Positions 3 through 24,420 of a DNA stretch of 64,000 bases are shown here, in pieces (position 1 is the first letter of the stretch; every line of letters begins with the position of its first letter). Under the pieces are notes generated by a model. The model was not told the DNA's origin, searched no databases, and saw only the letters and a program-made list of their open reading frames with translations. The translations under genes were made by a program, and so were the position numbers. Source of the stretch: the human T2T-CHM13v2.0 reference genome, Homo sapiens; assembly GCF_009914755.1 (NCBI RefSeq), contig NC_060931.1; one strand, 5' to 3'.

Positions 3-275
<273 letters not shown>

Positions 276-9286: not shown

Positions 9287-9619
9287 TGGCACCTTCCACT
9301 TCTCATATGGCTGCTGTTTCCCCCTGCCTCTCTCTCCTGCTTAGTCCCTATGTTTCTTCCTGTTTCCACCCTTCCCCCTCTGGTGTGTATGGCTGGCCCA
9401 TGGATCTGAGGAAGCCCTATCCTAGCTGAGGGCTGCCCCTCCCCTTACTGCCTCTTTGGCACTCTGGGTTTGCGCTCAGCCTGCCCCTGGCCGACTAGAC
9501 TTTATAAGGACAGAACCCAGAGACACCTCTGTGTACTTCAGGGACTGGGTCTAGCTTGAGGGGGCTACTCGATTTGGCCACAGCAGTGACATCAGCATGA
9601 TTCTTCATCCTTACAACAG

Positions 9620-9724
9620 GACCTGCTGCTGCCAAGCCAGACTTGATCTCCAAACTGGAGCGGAGGGCTGCACCCTGGATCAAGGACCCAAATGGGCCAA
9701 AGTGGGGGAAAGGTCGTCCTCCAG
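9620..9724 (+). CDS. ZNF862: ZNF862 coding exon: KRAB-B box
   Basis: ttacaacag|GA acceptor, CAG|gtgagt donor, 105 bp, phase 1-1; (G)[34 protein letters not shown], in frame with both flanking exons. Confidence 0.92.
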
Positions 9725-17571: not shown

Positions 17572-18689
17572 GCAGAGTCTATTTCAACACATCTCTGTCT
17601 TGTGTGTCCCTAAGCGAGGACCAGGAGCTCAGAGAAGCTGACAGAACGAGCTCTGCTCTCACTCACGAGGGGACAGGGCCAGGAACAGAGGTGGGCAGGG
17701 GAAGTGCCTGTGTATTCACCTGATTTTTGTCTTTCAGTTTCTTTCCTCTCTAGTCCTTCAAAGTGAGCTCAATCATTTTTGCCAGTTAGAAGATAGAGAT
17801 GAGAGTTGGCTGTTTGGTGAGTTATAATTAAGGGCTTGGCTGCCTTTTCTGGAGTACTGCATAGTTTACAAAGTGCTTTCACATACATGATCTAATTTGG
17901 TTTACTGAACTTAGAAAGGTAGACTTTCAAGGAAAAAACATCGATTTCCACCAATAGTAAAAGCTACTGCATCAGACCTGTCACTCAACAGCGCTCCTTG
18001 AGGCCTAGCTCCTGAGATCCCTCTGGCGAGCCCTTGCGGCTCCACATCCTCGGGACGGCACGCTCCCACGGGACTGGAGCAAAGGTTTCAGAGACTCGGG
18101 ATACAGCCAGATCTCTTCGGTGAGGAGACTCAGTCTTACTCGAGTGTATGTGATTTTTAAAAAAGACATTGAAACAACTATGGAAGCAGAGGCAAAGGCA
18201 GCAAGGCTTTGGGTTTGCGACTGGGAATCCGTGCGGCCTCCCTTTGGTGAAGACCTGACCCCGTGGTGGGGGTGAACAGGGTTTCCTTGACCCCGTCCCA
18301 GGGTTCCCTTCAGGACAGATGGATTTCACTAGGGGAAGCGTGATGCTGGTAGCCTCCACTCTCAGGCTGGGCAGGGTAGGCTCCCAGGGAGGCAGCTCCC
18401 AGCGCAGCCTCTTCCATCACTCCGGCTGGAGCTAGAAGGAGAGAAGTGAGCTGAGGCTCTAGAAAGTGCTGCACTCCTGCCTTTCTTTTTCCCAAGGGTG
18501 CTCTTGACATCCGGAGTGCAGTCAGCAGGCCTTTCCGAGTGGGCTGGCTGCCTCAGATGCCTCAGTCCCTGTTGCTGGGGATGCTTCGGTGGGGCCTCCT
18601 CACTGTGGGCCTTCTCTTGGGTCAGTGTGATCCTCGTGTCCCTTCCCTGTGCCAGCGACACTCGTGGGCTTCACGTGGCTGGCCCCTGC

Positions 18690-19394
18690 TCCCAGGGCTC
18701 TTGAGATGCTGCCTCTGACTGCAGCTCCTGCCACACTGGCACCTGTGTGGCCGCTGCTCCCCTCTGCACCTGGGAATAGCTGCCCAGAGACTTCCTGTTT
18801 TGAACCTTTTGCCTTGCTCAGGCAGCCAGCAAGGGCCCTGGCACTCACAACAGAAGGGCCCTGCAGTGCTGCGGCTCTGCTGGCGGGCCAGGACAAGCTG
18901 TGGGGCGCAGACACACTGGGCACACTCCAGACAGGCACAGGGCCTCTGGGCAGTGAGTTTGCAAGTGTTTTGTGGTCCTGGATCATGCACAGGCTTCTTG
19001 GCAGCCAGGAGAGGCTGTCTCTGCATTTAGTGTGCACACCTGAAAGAGCGGCCCCTCACCCACTAGGCAGTGTCCTCCCACATCCCCAGGAGGGTCTTCC
19101 TGTGCCATCTGAGGTCCACTTAGTGGAAAGCCTTTGCCACACCAGGACACTTTCAGGACTACTCCCCCACGTGGCTGTGCTCATGGTGGCCAGGGCTGTA
19201 TGGCTCTTGAAGCTCTCCACACACTTGGCACAGATGGATGGCTTTTCCAGTGGAATCAAAAGGACTCAGGCATTCTGAGGCCAGTCTGGCCTTGGGGTTT
19301 TTCAGCTTCCCAGAAGCCTGCAGAATCGTTCTGGGGGGTTCCCAGTTGCCTCCAGAATCATCTTCAGTCTTGTTTCTGACTGTGTTACCAAATA
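18690..19394 (-). pseudogene. Decayed C2H2 zinc-finger exon
   Basis: tttcttccacag| acceptor at 19394. EKPSICAKCVESFKSHTAL(fs)HHEHSH-VGE*S*-KCP(fs)CGKGFPLSG(fs)LRWHRKT (19250-19090), then QRPCACLECAQ (~18950) and GEQRPHRCQCGRSCSQRQHLKS (~18760-18697). Confidence 0.8.
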
Positions 19395-20353
19395 CTGTGG
19401 AAGAAACTCAGATGTTAGCCTAGTGATGGGGACACACTTCTTTTGTTCAGTGTGACCTGCTCAGCCTCTAGCCCCCAGCCCCAGCGAGATGACGGATAAG
19501 GCAGCGTCCTGTGGATGCCAGAGCCGGGGCCAAGTGTGGGTCAGCATCCCAGCTCAGAGGAGCGGCCCAGTTTGTCTGAGAACACTGAAGTCCCAGAGCC
19601 CTGGGGAGGGGCTTCTGACCAGCACTCCTCCTGCTCTCATTCCAACACACACAAAGGGAATGTCCTGGTCCAGGGAGCCAGGGCTCTCTTGCTGCCATGT
19701 GAATAATTCCCTGTAGCAGCCACTGCTAGACAGCAAGCTTGGGAAGCCTTCTTATGCAGAAATCAAAGTCATTTTTATAAAAAGTGTCACAGAGTCCCTT
19801 ATGAAGACAGCTGGACAGAGCAGGAGCCGACCCTTCCCTGACTGCCCAGTTCAGTGAGCCCGGTAAAATATCTGCCGTCAGCAGCCTGCCATGAGGTGCA
19901 GTGAGGACCTTCTACTTCATCCCTCCAAGCTGAGTCGTATCATAAAATGCATACTTTATGTTCCTTCTGCCTGTAGAGAATCAGAAAGCACATGATGGAG
20001 GTTTCAGAAAAGGGCTTGTGAGATCGAGCATGTCAGAGCTGAAGATCTGTGTCTGTGAGACATGTCCTCCTGAAAGAGCACACATGAGCTGACATAGCCA
20101 CGGCGCCGGATTGCCCTCACTCTGATTGTCCCATCAGTGTAGCTTGTCTCAAGAGGTTTACACTGTGGCTGTGTTTCTCACAGGTTACCCAAACTCCTAT
20201 CATAAAGGCAGGAAACAGAAGTAAAAAACCTGAATCCAAACCACAGGAAGTGCTGTGGAGATACTGATTCGTGGGTTGATCAGAGCCCAGGAGGCACTAA
20301 AGGCTCAATGAACATGGTGATCTTTGTGCAAGAGATGTTCCATCAAGGCTTAC

Positions 20354-20463
20354 CTGGCTGGGTGGTAGCTTTTTGGCCTCTGTTGGGGGCTGGGAATCCT
20401 TCACCCAAAGCTCATGTTCCCTTTCAAGTCTACAAGTGATCTCTGGTTTGGCAGCAGCATGCA
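20354..20463 (-). pseudogene. Decayed KRAB-B exon
   Basis: tctttctccctacag|TG acceptor, CAG|gtaagc donor; (V)HAAAKPEITCRLEREHELWVKDSQPPTEAKKLPPSQ matches KRAB-B KPxxIxxLExxxExW. At 110 bp it is not a multiple of 3, which a phase 1-1 exon requires. Confidence 0.85.
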
Positions 20464-20863
20464 CTGTAGGGAGAAAGACAGCCCAGTGCCCCTCAACCCA
20501 CACTGAGCGCACATAGACCCGTGTCAGTCCTGAAGCCTGACTTGCACCACCCATTTAATGCCCTGGGCTCACCCTATCAATTTGGGACAGCGGGGGTAGG
20601 TTGTAAACCTAAGAGAGCTCCAGAAGTAGGCAGGGCCTGGCATACAGGTAGGGATGTTTATTTCAGGGCAACTTCAGGAGTGCCAAGGGCTGATAAAACA
20701 GTGCAATTGTCATAATATGTTTTCCCACTGCCAGGGCCCTTGAAGGAGAAACAGGCTCAACTAGTCACAGAGACAACCCTGCTCTGGGTCTAGTTCTCCC
20801 TGACCCCACAGGCCAGGAGTGCCCCTATTAGATGGCAAGCAAGCAAGGGGCCAAGGTCCTCAC

Positions 20864-20983
20864 CCAGCAAGACTCCCAGCTCCTAATTCCTTCTTATCAC
20901 ATCCTGGTATAATTCCTTCTACTCATGGCCACCAGAACAATGGGTGGAAGGTAGGTGGTTACATCATTAAATGTCACAGGCCT
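20864..20983 (-). pseudogene. Decayed KRAB-A exon
   Basis: Minus strand reads PVTFNDVTTYL (from 20980), a frameshift, then GHE*KELYQDVIRRN*ELGVLL-G|gtgag. TAG stops at 20919-21 and 20883-85; the phase-1 donor is intact; ~120 bp versus the usual 127. Confidence 0.85.
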
Positions 20984-22186
20984 TATTTGCAAAGACAGAG
21001 ACATCTGGAGCTGTTGTTCTCACCTCCGACACGTGCCCCGTCTGCAGAGAGCATTAGGATGCATCTGTGGCTCTGAGGTGTGATTTCCTAGGGCCTTCAA
21101 GTGTCCTGGGGCTCCTGTTCATTTGCACTGGGGGACACTCAGGGAAGTTTTAAAGAGCCTCTTTCAGTGGCTCCTTCTCCTTCTACCCTTTCTAGGAATT
21201 CATCAGCCCCATGAAAAGATGAACGATAGAGATGTCACCAACATCAGGACCCCACTCCCTGGGAGATGTCATGGAAACTTGTCAGTCACACCCAAAGCAC
21301 TCACTGAGGAGCCGTGGCAGAGCAGTCGGTGGCGCCAATACCAACCAGAAGCCGCCAGGGCAGAGGGGAACCGTGAAGCCAGCGGAATGCACAGCTCCAC
21401 CTCAGGGGACCGGGGTAGGCGGGGCTGTGTCTGGTAACATGCCCTTTGCCTCACATTAGTGCCTCTGAAAATAGTGTCCTCAGCCTGGGCACAAACCCTA
21501 GGGGTGAGCTGGGAGTGTGGAGGAGACGCTGGATTAGGGAGAAGTCTCGGCCATGTGTTCTGGCTCTTTTACTGATGAGCTGTGTGGGCCTAGGCAAGTT
21601 ACTTCACTTCTCTGGGCCTCAGTTTTATCACCTGTAAAGTGATAGGATTGCCTTAGCCTCTAAGATCCCTTTCAGCTAAAAACAAAGTTCTAGAAAATAA
21701 ATATGTGGTACTGTGGAACTCTGGGGAGCTGTTTGATCAGGTGAACAGTTTACCCATGGAAATGGGGCTCCAGCACAAAGCTGCTCACATCTTCCAGTCA
21801 CGCTCCAGGGAACAGCCAGGGCTTGTGGGCCCAGATGAGGCTTTAGTGGTTGGAGAAGGAGCCAGTTCCTGGTTTTAATCCCTTCATGGACCTCAGACCA
21901 TCACAAAGCTGCCAAACAAATGACATAGGCAATCACATGCAAATTAGGACAGAAATGAAACATCAAAGACATTAAAGGAAAAGAGTAAGAGCTGCAGGCT
22001 GCTAATATGAGTGGCTGCTCAGACTCAGCAATGTTTTTGGTTCTGGCCAAAGCCAAGACAAAGGAGCAGAGGCAAAGAAGGAAATACATTTCACTTTACA
22101 GCTGTCATTTTCTACAGAGGATTTTTTTTTTCCAGAACAAAATTCAAAAAGTCCGTCTTTTTTGAGCTATAGAACTTTCGTGGTGA

Positions 22187-22490
22187 TTTTTTTTTTTTTT
22201 TTTTGAGACGGAGTCTCACTCTATCCCCCAGGCTGGAGTGCAGGGGCACAATCTCGGCTCACTGCAAGTGCAAGCTCTGCCTCCCGGGTTCACGCCATTC
22301 TCCTTTCAGCCTCCAAAGTAGCTAGGACTACAGGTGCCCGCCACCATGCCCAGCTAATTTTTTTATATTTTTAGTAGAGACGGGGTTTCACCGTGTTAGC
22401 CAGGATGGTCTCGATCTCCTGACCTCGTGATCCGCCCGCCTCTGCCTCCCATAGTGCTGGGATTACAGGTGTGAGCCACTGCGCTCAGCC
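22187..22490 (-). mobile_element. AluY
   Basis: AluY diagnostics (gcaagctc..ttcacgccattctc; accgtgttagccaggatggtctcgatctc); TSD tcgtggtga. Confidence 0.93.
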
Positions 22491-23389
22491 CTCGTGGTGA
22501 TTTTTTGAAGGCCTGTATGGACATACTCTTAACTCTATCTCCTGGATGCCAAGTGCACCCTTATCCTAGGCCAGTGTTCTCAACAATGTACACACTCTGG
22601 ATGAGAAAAATAACCATTGTTTACAATCCAGCTAAAATCTCACCTCCTCCAGGGAGTCTTCCTGGATTTCTCCACCCTCTGAATTCTCATAATGGGCATT
22701 TGGCTACTTTGATCACAGGGCTCTTAGAACTGCGCTGTCCAGCATTATGATTTTACCAGAATATATCACTCCTCAACTACTTTAGAAACCCCTCGAAGGC
22801 TAGGATGGTATTTTATACCTAACAGTTTGGTGTCATCCCACGCCCACCTCCAACTTACATGAATGTTGGAAGGATGGATAGGGAGGTTTCAACTAGAGAA
22901 CGGAGAAGGGCGGATGTAACTGGTTCTTGATTTCAGAAAACAGCCAGGAGCACACATGGCTGACGGGGTCAGTGCAAGGACAGGCACATTTCCCTTCTGC
23001 ATCACGTGGGGACTGCGCCTCCCTATGTCATGAAGCCAGGGAATATGTGTGGCCGGCCGCTTGGGGTAGCACTTGTTGCTAGAGATACCGCCTGGAGGCC
23101 ACTGATCTGTAAAAGGGATCTCTACAGAAGATAGGGATTTTTGATCGCCAGAGAAGAAGGGATATGTGAGATCCAAACGCCGAAGGAGGAAAGCAGGCTC
23201 CGTGGTCTCTTCCAGCCCTGATGGAAGAAACTACCGAGCCTTATTATACTAGGTGCTTTCCACATGCCTATTCATTTAATCCTCCAGCAACCTTGTAAGA
23301 AGGGCCATCCCATTTTATATTTAAACAAACCTTAACTACTGACGCAAGGAGTCAAGGATCTAATCCCAAAGCCTCTGCCTGGTTCGCTG

Positions 23390-24420
23390 CAGATGGATGT
23401 CCGCGAGGACGCCAGCCCTCCGCCTCCCGCCGGGTCCCTGAACGCCGGCCCGGCCGGTCCAACCTCATTCCGCTTCCCGCCATCGAAACGCGAAGCCCCC
23501 GCCTTCCCCCAAACGTCTCAGCGCCGCTGGGGCCTTTCTGGCTGCGCCGCCTCCGACCCCAGGCCCCGGTCCGCGCCCGCCGCTCGCTAGTCCTGGGAGT
23601 GAGGAGAACGCGTGCTGAGGACCCGGCCAGAGGGACAGCGGGGACCGCCCTCCCGCTGCGTCTCTGAAAGCGAGGCCGTTCCTCCCGCGTCCGACCCCCG
23701 CGGGGCCGTCCGGTTCGGGGCGGCCCAGGCTGCGGGTCCGCAGGGCGCTTCGGGCCGAGCCGGCGCGGCGCGTGAAGGGCAGGGGACGCCCCGAAAGACC
23801 GCTGGGGTGGGACCCCAAGCTCCAGGGGTCTTTGGAAATAAGAATGCGGCGTGACGTTGGCTGTGCGGGCGCGGGGCTGACGCGGACCCTATAACCCATC
23901 GCCGAAACCGGGCGGCCGCGCCCCTATTCCTCGGCATTTCTCTCTGTCCGCGGCCCTGCTCAGCCAATCAGCGAGTGGGCTCCTAGGCAGGTCCTGAGTG
24001 ACAGCGCGGCGGGCTGGATCAGGAGATGCGCGTGCGCGGCCCGGCCCGGCTGATCGCTTCGGGTGCTCGACTCCTGTTGCGCATGCTCAGCGCGCTGCCC
24101 GGCTGGGGACCCGCGCACCTGCAGCGCCCGCTGCTCGGCCCTGCATCCTGCCTGGGCATCCTGCGCCCGGCCATGACGGCGCACTCATTCGCCCTCCCGG
24201 TCATCATCTTCACCACGTTCTGGGGCCTCGTCGGCATCGCCGGGCCCTGGTTCGTGCCGAAGGGACCCAACCGCGGGTAAGGAAAGCGCGCAGGCCCTGC
24301 AGACCTCTCCACCCCGGCCCCCTGGCCCGGCTCGCCCCTCCGCCCCGGGGCGGCGGCTTCCTGCTCTGCAGCGAGCGTCCGCAGGAGGGACGCCAGGACC
24401 CCGGACGCCACCTCTGAGGT
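23390..24420. promoter_or_regulatory. CpG island / bidirectional promoter of ATP6V0E2 and the antisense transcript
   Basis: Very high GC and CpG density; CCAAT box CAGCCAATCAG at 23961-23971; TGACG CRE half-sites at ~23852 and ~23878; GC boxes. Confidence 0.9.
24173..24276 (+). CDS. ATP6V0E2: ATP6V0E2 exon 1 CDS (V-ATPase V0 subunit e2)
   Basis: gccATGA start; [35 protein letters not shown]; GG|gtaagg donor. An in-frame upstream ATG lies at 24026. Confidence 0.96.

What the first reader, a model, noticed from the sequence alone, without database searches (positions are those of the whole stretch)
18690..20983. The 'antisense lncRNA' interval hides a fossil KRAB-C2H2 zinc-finger gene
Seen: three minus-strand segments in the order and architecture of a KRAB-ZNF gene. 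(1) A KRAB-A exon (PVTFNDVTTYL..KELYQDVIRRN*ELGVLLG, donor gtgag). (2) After a 400-bp intron, a KRAB-B exon (AAAKPEITCRLEREHELWVKD, AG/GT intact). (3) After a ~960-bp intron, a long exon in which one 1-nt shift restores a perfectly spaced finger C-x2-C-x3-F-x5-L-x2-H-x3-H (CAKCVESFKSHTALAHHEHSH). That finger is followed by a decayed TGEKPY-type linker (VGE*S*KC), a second finger (CP-CGKGF....LRWHRKT) and further remnants. The introns show it is not a retrocopy. Inference: a protein-coding KRAB-ZNF died in place (unitary or duplicated pseudogene) and its transcription unit survives as ATP6V0E2-AS1. I am not aware of it being annotated as a ZNF pseudogene, but I cannot check that here.
Basis: partly seen in the sequence, partly recalled or inferred. 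Interest (0 to 1): 0.88.

Follow-up and report, generated by a model that had tools for sequence, protein, structure and literature searches.

The report
Dead KRAB zinc-finger gene inside ATP6V0E2-AS1
The human non-coding RNA gene ATP6V0E2-AS1 is built on the decayed remains of an ordinary KRAB zinc-finger gene, a common kind of gene death that seems not to have been described for this locus.

Summary
I built DNA profiles from unrelated human KRAB zinc-finger genes. In the whole 64-kb window, both strands, their best hits apart from ZNF862's own KRAB exons are the three claimed minus-strand pieces, in gene order:

- **KRAB-A:** 20980-20855, E 4.7e-4.
- **KRAB-B:** 20467-20395, E 1.9e-3.
- **Tandem C2H2 fingers:** 19247-19092, 37 bits, E 3.9e-11, with weaker remnants at 18971-18921 and 18737-18702.

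None of 100 shuffled windows reached any observed score. Introns of 400 and 959 nt sit at the canonical KRAB positions, with consistent splice phases. The KRAB-B exon is exactly lncRNA exon 3, and the finger exon lies inside exon 4.

The frame carries 7 stops in 272 codons and at least 4 frameshifting indels, so it is a long-dead, unprocessed pseudogene. It has no DNA paralogue in the genome. Its KRAB groups with the local 7q36.1 lineage, including ZNF862's two KRABs.

Single-frame Pfam scans miss it. One earlier study listed the lncRNA only as a positional candidate, without sequence similarity. It is a new member of a known kind, of modest interest.

The parts
20864..20981 (-). KRAB-A exon remnant. 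It has an acceptor AG|G and a donor G|GTGAGG, a net 7-nt deletion in the middle, and in-frame TAG codons starting at 20921 and 20885.
   Evidence: nhmmer with a profile of 48 unrelated KRAB-A exons hits 20980-20855 at 15.0 bits, E 4.7e-4. This is the second-best hit in the window after ZNF862's own exon. Stop positions come, and the alignment to the ZNF862 exon.
20464..20863 (-). Intron between KRAB-A and KRAB-B (400 nt, phase 1).
   Evidence: Read from the sequence. The phase check uses the translations.
20354..20463 (-). KRAB-B exon. Its 36 codons are open, and it is identical to exon 3 of NR_027040.1.
   Evidence: nhmmer with a profile of 38 KRAB-B exons hits 20467-20395 at 13.1 bits, E 1.9e-3, second only to the ZNF862 exon. 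BLASTP against the ZNF862 KRAB-B gives 15/33 identical. Exon coordinates come from the hub's gene table.
19395..20353 (-). Ancestral intron 2 (959 nt). Its 3' part, 19395-19970, is now exonic in the lncRNA, which uses an upstream acceptor at 19970.
   Evidence: Sequence and the hub's gene table.
19248..19394 (-). Spacer between KRAB-B and the fingers. It is in frame with finger 1 and has two TGA stops, starting at 19304 and 19268.
19156..19238 (-). Finger 1. All six C/C/F/L/H/H positions are kept. It has a 1-nt deletion between L and the first H, and is followed by the linker VGE*S*K.
   Evidence: nhmmer single-unit hit at 19234-19159, E 0.0019. It is part of the 37-bit tandem hit.
19075..19155 (-). 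Finger 2 (C-P-x-C-G-K-G-F ... L-R-W-H-R-K-T). It has a 1-nt and a 2-nt deletion, a TAA stop, and the last His lost. The lower boundary is approximate.
   Evidence: nhmmer hit at 19150-19092, E 0.027 on its own.
18921..18971 (-). End of a further finger (K-H-L-Q-T-H), a linker with a 2-nt gap, and the C-x2-C of the next finger (unit start about 18939).
   Evidence: nhmmer tandem model, E 0.085, third-best hit of the window.
18701..18855 (-). Two more strongly decayed finger units. One starts at 18855, exactly 84 nt after the unit at 18939. The other starts near 18750 (C-G-R-S-C...L).
   Evidence: nhmmer hit at 18737-18701, E 2-2.6 window-wide and 0.023 within the 1.1-kb region. The 84-nt spacing was read by eye. 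This part is weak on its own.
17806..19970 (-). Terminal exon of lncRNA ATP6V0E2-AS1. It embeds the whole finger exon and the likely former 3' UTR.
   Evidence: The hub's gene table.
21754..23969 (-). lncRNA exons 1 (23331-23969) and 2 (21754-21908). Exon 1 starts head-to-head with ATP6V0E2. Both may be former 5' UTR exons.
   Evidence: The hub's gene table. No protein family was found in any minus frame here. The role as former UTR is inference only.

Best explanation
Window 18700-20981 (minus strand) is an unprocessed, long-dead pseudogene of a KRAB-C2H2 zinc-finger gene of the local 7q36.1 lineage.

The ancestral gene had the standard layout:
- a KRAB-A exon;
- a 400-nt phase-1 intron;
- a KRAB-B exon;
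- a 959-nt phase-0 intron;
- one large exon with a spacer and about seven tandem fingers.

It lost its reading frame through nonsense mutations and small indels, and has since drifted almost to background stop density.

Transcription did not stop. The locus is still transcribed from a start that lies head-to-head with ATP6V0E2. The KRAB-B exon is still spliced with its original sites, and the finger exon is still the core of the terminal exon. The result is annotated as lncRNA ATP6V0E2-AS1.

- **Shown:** the homology, the architecture, the lesions and the exon overlap.
- **Inferred:** that no protein is made, that transcription persists passively because of the promoter region shared with ATP6V0E2, and that the death is old (order of 100 Myr).
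For: **Three independent DNA profiles**
- They were built from 48 KRAB-A exons, 38 KRAB-B exons and 244-325 finger units of unrelated human loci.
- Each places its best hit outside ZNF862 on the minus strand, in the order A, B, fingers.
- The ZNF862 KRAB exons serve as positive controls, at E 6.7e-21 and 1.1e-10.

**Controls and architecture**
- 0 of 100 shuffled windows reach any observed score.
- Splice sites and phases are consistent across both introns.
- DNA alignment to the ZNF862 KRAB exons aligns the acceptor and donor of both exons.
- lncRNA exon 3 has exactly the KRAB-B exon boundaries (hub table).

**Decay**
- There are 7 stops in 272 codons along the inferred frames, against 3.7% in the three local frames.
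- There are at least 4 frameshifting gaps.
- The fossil's terminal branch is 0.39 substitutions per site, against a median of 0.12 for the 38 other KRAB exon pairs.

**No recent source copy**
- A DNA search of 17806-21100 against the whole genome finds only the region itself.
Against: **Curated protein models do not see it**
- There is no PF01352 or PF00096 hit at E<=10 in any single frame.
- It is not among the 150 scored KRAB hits of the genome-wide scan, out of 693 candidates.

**Weak parts**
- The KRAB-A and KRAB-B scores are significant only at window scale, or conditional on the nearby finger hit. Scaled to the whole genome they would be E>1.
- The KRAB-B score (13.1 bits) exceeds the best shuffle (12.5 bits) only narrowly.
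- The downstream fingers (18971-18701) are individually not significant.

**Gaps in the model**
- The KRAB-A exon is not in the RefSeq transcript.
- No start codon or upstream coding exon was found.
- No other species was examined, so a formerly functional gene is inferred from architecture alone.
Confidence: 0.9

Rival explanations
1. Composite origin. The KRAB exons are a leftover of a partial inverted duplication of the neighbouring ZNF862 KRAB region. The finger remnants come from a different, unrelated event, so there never was one KRAB-ZNF gene here.
For: - The fossil's KRAB-B peptide has ZNF862's KRAB-B exon as its best non-self match in the genome.
- The fossil groups with the ZNF862 KRABs in trees.
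- ZNF862 lies tail to tail with the fossil, 214 bp away.
Against: - Same strand, correct order, canonical intron positions, and both splice phases lead into the finger frame.
- The decay is similarly heavy in all parts.
- ZNF862 has no C2H2 array. The best plus-strand finger-unit hit inside ZNF862's coding exons is E 21, and 9.2-9.5 with the tandem models.
- Local duplication of whole KZFP genes is the usual mode of growth of this family (general knowledge).
Confidence: 0.05
2. The locus still encodes a protein, for example the 134-codon AUG ORF at 19026-18622 that runs through the decayed fingers, or a short KRAB-B peptide.
For: - An open 134-aa ORF exists in the terminal exon.
- Hezroni et al. 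tag the transcripts 'LongAUGORF'.
- The KRAB-B exon has no stop in 36 codons.
Against: - The ORF has no family hit.
- Both His positions of one of its fingers read Arg (read by eye).
- It is not joined in frame to the KRAB exons.
- The same table gives 0 for translated regions in HEK293 and a blank for HFF.
- 36 open codons is not unusual by chance, about 0.18-0.26.
Confidence: 0.03
3. Chance resemblance in GC-rich, cysteine-codon-rich sequence.
For: - Pfam finds nothing in single frames.
- The KRAB-B score is only 0.6 bits above the best shuffle.
Against: - The 37-bit tandem-finger hit compares with a shuffle maximum of 9.2 bits.
- Three profiles hit colinearly on one strand within 2 kb.
- The splice sites coincide with an annotated exon.
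Confidence: 0.01
4. Processed pseudogene, or a recent segmental copy of a living KZFP.
For: None found.
Against: - Two introns are present at the canonical positions.
- There is no other genomic match to 3.3 kb of DNA.
Confidence: 0.01

Closest known systems
Unprocessed KRAB-ZNF pseudogenes of KZFP clusters (the class as a whole; that the 7q36.1 cluster holds an annotated one, ZNF767P, is recalled and comes from no call)
   Same: KRAB-A and KRAB-B lie on separate exons and the fingers in one exon. The gene was killed by stops and frameshifts, and it is still transcribed.
   Different: RefSeq annotates it only as an antisense lncRNA (hub table). It is so decayed that protein HMMs miss it.
The two KRAB modules of the neighbouring gene ZNF862 (a hAT-transposase-derived gene per PMC3257199, passages read)
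   Same: - It belongs to the same local KRAB lineage: a clade of fossil, both ZNF862 KRABs and two 7q36.1 cluster genes has support 97.3/99.
- Shared motifs are AAAKP..LER....W.KD and KELY.DV.R.NYEL.
- The exon boundaries align.
   Different: - ZNF862 joins its KRABs to a transposase-derived body, not to C2H2 fingers.
- The sister relation is not resolved: AU p is 0.36 and 0.40 for the alternatives.
- In the reciprocal search the fossil ranks only 5th of 8.
lncRNAs that are fossils of protein-coding genes (Hezroni et al. 2017, PMC5577775; XIST/LNX3 is the example in that paper)
   Same: - The transcription unit and some exons of a dead coding gene persist as a lncRNA.
- This very lncRNA is in their Table S4 as a positional candidate.
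   Different: - There the link rested on synteny only (similarity flag 0), and the paper states a false-discovery rate of about 70% for the method.
- Here the coding remnants themselves are identified and assigned to a family.

Membership tests
KRAB-C2H2 zinc-finger gene (as a pseudogene) | KRAB-A box | tested here: met
   The DNA profile covers model positions 10-142 of 147, at E 4.7e-4, with 0 of 100 shuffles reaching it. Pfam PF01352 on single frames is not met.
KRAB-C2H2 zinc-finger gene (as a pseudogene) | KRAB-B box on its own exon | tested here: met
   E 1.9e-3, and 0 of 100 shuffles reach it, though only narrowly. The exon limits equal those of the annotated lncRNA exon.
KRAB-C2H2 zinc-finger gene (as a pseudogene) | Tandem C2H2 fingers with an 84-nt period and TGEKP-type linkers, in one exon | tested here: met
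   Two adjacent units give 37 bits, E 3.9e-11. Further remnants lie downstream, one pair of them exactly 84 nt apart.
KRAB-C2H2 zinc-finger gene (as a pseudogene) | Canonical intron positions and phases | tested here: met
   Phase 1 after KRAB-A and phase 0 after KRAB-B, both leading into the homologous frames.
Functional KZFP gene | Open reading frame through KRAB and fingers | tested here: not met
   7 stops in 272 codons and at least 4 frameshifting gaps.
Processed pseudogene | No introns | tested here: not met
   Introns of 400 and 959 nt are present.
Unitary pseudogene | No functional parent or paralogue copy in the same genome | tested here: inconclusive
   There is no DNA-level match elsewhere. 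However, the age of the fossil would erase DNA similarity to an old paralogue.
Unitary pseudogene | Intact orthologue in other species | not testable with these tools
   No vertebrate genomes are on hand. The protein search of the spacer plus finger 1 found nothing, which the tool itself calls weak evidence.
7q36.1 KZFP lineage with a DUF3669 domain (the feature is recalled) | DUF3669 exon upstream of KRAB | tested here: not met
   There is no Pfam hit in the minus frames of 19399-24000. Decay could hide it.

The most novel reading that the evidence does not exclude
The fossil is the remnant of the KZFP gene that shares an exclusive ancestor with the two KRAB modules of its tail-to-tail neighbour ZNF862. 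In other words, it is the sister or donor copy from which a hAT-transposase gene acquired its KRAB exons by local duplication. That would make the locus a preserved record of how a domesticated transposase was wired to KRAB-mediated repression.
Probability: 0.2. Interest if true: 0.55.

Novelty: new member of a known kind. Interest (0 to 1): 0.3.

Why it matters
- **Origin of the lncRNA.** It gives a much-cited biomarker lncRNA a concrete evolutionary origin: 33 papers mention ATP6V0E2-AS1 in the searched library.
- **A positional guess becomes a sequence-backed case.** It turns the positional guess of Hezroni et al. 2017 into one more sequence-backed case of a lncRNA derived from a coding gene.
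- **A method lesson.** DNA-level profiles recover KZFP fossils that protein HMM scans miss, so catalogues of dead KZFPs are probably incomplete.
- **A dead cluster member.** It adds a dead member to the old 7q36.1 KZFP cluster, next to ZNF862, which may bear on where ZNF862's KRAB exons came from.

None of this overturns current views. KZFP birth and death, and lncRNAs made from pseudogenes, are well established.

Tried and rejected
**Searches that found nothing**
- Pfam on single frames with stops as X: nothing relevant. The only hits were RAG2 at E 0.25 and a JAG1 EGF at E 3, both noise.
- Genome-wide PF01352 scan: only the best 150 of 693 candidates are scored, and the fossil is not listed.
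- Short KRAB-A C-half peptide against the genome: only itself.
- Protein finger profile on the six frames of the window: 5 hits, all negative scores. DNA profiles were used instead.
- The search for homologous proteins with the 69-aa spacer plus finger 1 (stops as X, longer proteins): 6 candidates, none at E<=0.01. The library may lack vertebrates, so this says little.

**Steps that failed or were skipped**
- My first KRAB regexes were too strict, catching 23 of 49 loci for KRAB-A and only 5 for KRAB-B. I replaced them with iterative nhmmer.
- The search of protein representatives, structure prediction and complex prediction were not used. A 36-69-aa decayed query could not reach significance in 1.8 billion proteins, and a fold of a dead frame would say nothing.

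**Rejected or unresolved ideas**
- The fossil as a copy of ZNF862 itself: rejected, because ZNF862 has no C2H2 array and no DNA match.
- KRAB-A nearest relative by plain DNA identity: the range is 52-65% and the top three are 7q36.1 exons. The margins are one or two bases, so the ranking is not informative on its own.
Full report
**What was checked**

The window is human T2T chr7:151032001-151096000 (hub table, confirmed). I read the minus strand of 17700-21200 and listed stop-to-stop frames.
- PVTFNDVTTYL and KELYQDVIRRN*ELGVLLG lie in two frames of one small exon.
- HAAAKPEITCRLEREHELWVKD lies in a second exon.
- EKPSICAKCVESFKSHTALA / HHEHSHVGE*S*KC and the following finger lie in the third.

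Pfam hmmscan of every minus frame from 18299 to 24000, with stops read as X, returns no KRAB and no zf-C2H2 match at E<=10. The genome-wide PF01352 scan lists 150 of 693 candidates, and this locus is not among them. The homologous stretches are cut into 10-20-residue pieces by frameshifts, which is too short for protein models.

**Frameshift-tolerant test**

The window's own assembly is searchable, so I fetched unrelated human KZFP loci.
- 49 KRAB-A sites came.
- 30 finger arrays came.

From these I built four DNA profile HMMs in the script box.
- A single 84-nt finger unit, from 325 distinct units of 343 found in 30 loci.
- A three-unit tandem model, from 244 rows.
- KRAB-A, from 48 distinct exons of 49 loci.
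- KRAB-B, from 38 exons.

Each was run with nhmmer --max over the whole window on both strands.

| Profile | Best hit | Next hits |
|---|---|---|
| KRAB-A | ZNF862 exon, 113-245 (+), E 6.7e-21 (positive control) | fossil 20980-20855 (-), 15.0 bits, E 4.7e-4, model positions 10-142 of 147 including the donor; then E 0.77 |
| KRAB-B | ZNF862 exon, 9611-9699 (+), E 1.1e-10 | fossil 20467-20395 (-), 13.1 bits, E 1.9e-3; then E 1.3 |
| Finger unit | 19234-19159 (-), E 0.0019 | 19150-19092 (-), E 0.027 |
| Three-unit model | 19247-19092 (-), 37.0 bits, E 3.9e-11 | 18971-18921 (-), E 0.085; 18737-18702 (-), E 2 |

As a control I made 100 windows shuffled in 2-kb blocks with dinucleotides preserved. 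Their best scores were 10.1, 12.5, 11.5 and 9.2 bits for the four profiles. So 0 of 100 reach the observed 15.0, 13.1, 14.1 and 37.0 bits. The KRAB-B margin is small.

Scaled to the whole genome, only the finger hit stays significant by itself, at about 2e-6. The two KRAB hits are significant given that they lie within 2 kb upstream of it on the same strand.

**Anatomy**

*KRAB-A exon, 20981-20864*
- The acceptor is ...aaataag|G and the donor G|GTGAGG.
- The middle has a net 7-nt loss, which separates the two frames.
- TAG codons start at 20921 and 20885. The second sits at the Tyr of the N-Y-E-L motif that ZNF862 keeps.
- The exon ends in phase 1.

*KRAB-B exon, 20463-20354*
- After 400 nt comes ...ctacag|T, and reading from phase 1 gives the KRAB-B frame.
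- The exon ends CAG|GTAAGC in phase 0.
- It is exactly exon 3 of NR_027040.1 (hub table).

*Finger exon, from 19394*
- After 959 nt, ttccacag|T opens an exon at 19394.
- Reading it in phase 0 runs through a 49-codon spacer with two TGA stops (19304, 19268) straight into E-K-P-S-I-C-A-K-C, the start of finger 1.
- Each of the two phase agreements has a one-in-three chance if the pieces were unrelated.

*Fingers*
- Finger 1 keeps C, C, F, L, H and H and has a single 1-nt gap.
- The linker keeps G-E and the exact 7-residue spacing to the next Cys, but holds TAG and TGA.
- Finger 2 reads C-P-x-C-G-K-G-F ... L-R-W-H-R-K-T, with a 1-nt and a 2-nt gap and a TAA.
- Downstream there is an H-x3-H (K-H-L-Q-T-H) followed by a gapped linker and C-x2-C at 18971-18921.
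- Further units start at about 18939, at 18855 (exactly 84 nt on) and at about 18750.
- In the unit that starts at about 18939, both His positions read Arg (read by eye). These distal units are weak evidence individually.

*Lesion census*

Along the inferred frames there are 7 stops in 272 codons (2.6%). The three local frames carry 3.7%.

**What it is**

It is an unprocessed pseudogene of a KRAB-C2H2 gene.
- It is not a retrocopy, because introns are present.
- It is not a recent copy, because a DNA search with 17806-21100 finds only itself in 3.1 Gb.

In a GTR+G tree of KRAB-A plus KRAB-B, the fossil's terminal branch is 0.39 substitutions per site. The median for the 38 other genes is 0.12, and the two cluster genes have 0.05-0.07. 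Together with the near-background stop density, this suggests neutral drift on the order of 100 Myr. That figure is a rough inference and not a dating.

**Relatives**

The fossil's KRAB-B peptide has ZNF862's second KRAB-B exon (window 9620-9724), 10 kb away, as its best non-self match in the genome.
- The genome-wide match is 44% identity at E 0.89, and the next hit is at E 6.7.
- The pairwise comparison gives 15/33 identical, E 2e-9.
- The KRAB-A C-half shares 10/14 with ZNF862's second KRAB-A.
- The N-half resembles ZNF862's first KRAB-A, P-V-T-F-x-D-x-T-x-Y-L.

The reverse search is less clear.
- ZNF862's KRAB-B ranks the fossil 5th of 8, at 21.0 bits against 23.0 for the best non-self hit.
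- Plain KRAB-A DNA identity ranges from 52 to 65%, with three 7q36.1 exons on top by one or two bases.

| Tree | Grouping | Support (SH-aLRT / UFBoot) |
|---|---|---|
| KRAB-A only, 63 rows | fossil + ZNF862 KRAB1 | 72.8 / 79 |
| A+B, 41 rows, no cluster genes | fossil + KRAB1 | 67.9 / 96 |
| A+B, 41 rows | fossil + KRAB1 + KRAB2 | 98 / 99 |
| A+B, 43 rows, two 7q36.1 genes added | five-member local clade | 97.3 / 99 |
| A+B, 43 rows | inner nodes | 53.7 / 90 and 54.6 / 91 |

The AU test does not reject placing the fossil with the cluster genes (p 0.36) or outside a ZNF862+cluster group (p 0.40).

Three caveats apply.
- The alignment is only 206 columns.
- The fossil and KRAB1 are long branches.
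- The comparison set was chosen from the most canonical KRABs.

The firm statement is that the fossil belongs to the local 7q36.1 KRAB lineage. A special tie to ZNF862 is possible but unproven. No DUF3669-like or other domain was seen upstream.

**How it works now**

The lncRNA's first exon starts head-to-head with ATP6V0E2 (hub table). Two of its four exons reuse ancestral coding exons. I infer that transcription persists because of the shared promoter region, and that splicing persists because the KRAB-B sites remain good. No protein function is left. A 134-codon AUG ORF (19026-18622) crosses the decayed fingers, but it has no family match. Any RNA-level function is untested here.

**Literature**

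| Search | Result |
|---|---|
| 'ATP6V0E2-AS1' | 33 papers, 25 listed; I saw titles and the starts of abstracts |
| 'LOC401431' | 8 papers, all expression or methylation lists by title |
| 'ATP6V0E2-AS1' with 'zinc finger' | 5 papers; in the two I opened the name sits only in gene lists (passages) |
| KRAB + zinc finger + pseudogene + lncRNA + 7q36 | 0 papers |

- **Hezroni et al. 2017** (PMC5577775; passages and Table S4 read) list ATP6V0E2-AS1, and mouse 1700026J14Rik, as positionally conserved with 'genes with lost coding potential'. These are five opossum transcripts and one Xenopus transcript, anchored on LRRC61. The similarity flag is 0. The paper states a false-discovery rate of about 70% for synteny alone, and its main text never mentions KRAB or zinc fingers.
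- **Two other surveys:** the supplements held as text for the loss-relic survey (PMC10195156) and the lincRNA coding-remnant survey (PMC6158594) do not contain the gene.
- **PMC3257199** (passages) treats ZNF862 as a hAT-derived domesticated gene.
- **Not checked:** I could not see GENCODE, pseudogene databases or KZFP catalogues. PDF supplements were not readable. An existing entry there cannot be excluded.

**Verdict**

The finding is a new, or at least not visibly described, member of a very common class. It is worth a line of annotation and a comparative follow-up, but it is not a surprise.

Noticed in passing
window 60-237 (+), ZNF862 exon: The second KRAB-A exon of ZNF862 begins with a short internal repeat ([15 protein letters not shown]), as if the start of the KRAB-A box had been duplicated in tandem.
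   Followed up: no
L085 6522-6608 and 8051-8114 (G000:C7:151020001-151030000): The first KRAB of ZNF862 is degenerate. The KRAB-A profile matches only model positions 1-87, and the box ends ...Q-K-E-L-C-G-S-N-K-L-V-A-P-L-G. Its KRAB-B scores only 11.2 bits.
   Followed up: partly
window 18622-19026 (-): A 134-codon AUG-initiated ORF lies in the lncRNA's last exon and runs through the decayed fingers. Hezroni et al. tag the transcripts 'LongAUGORF'. No family match was found.
   Followed up: partly
window 17591-17806: ZNF862 (+) and ATP6V0E2-AS1 (-) end tail to tail only 214 bp apart (hub table), so their 3' ends nearly touch.
   Followed up: no
G000:C7:150.26-150.90 Mb (L086-L094): The best genome-wide matches to ZNF862's second KRAB-A are KRAB exons 0.13-0.77 Mb upstream on chr7, in the 7q36.1 cluster. 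Several are read through a stop just upstream of the box, which probably marks intron sequence.
   Followed up: partly
window 22178-22493: A masked repeat with a long A/T run lies in lncRNA intron 1. It is probably an Alu; the family was not checked (translation, hub table).
   Followed up: no
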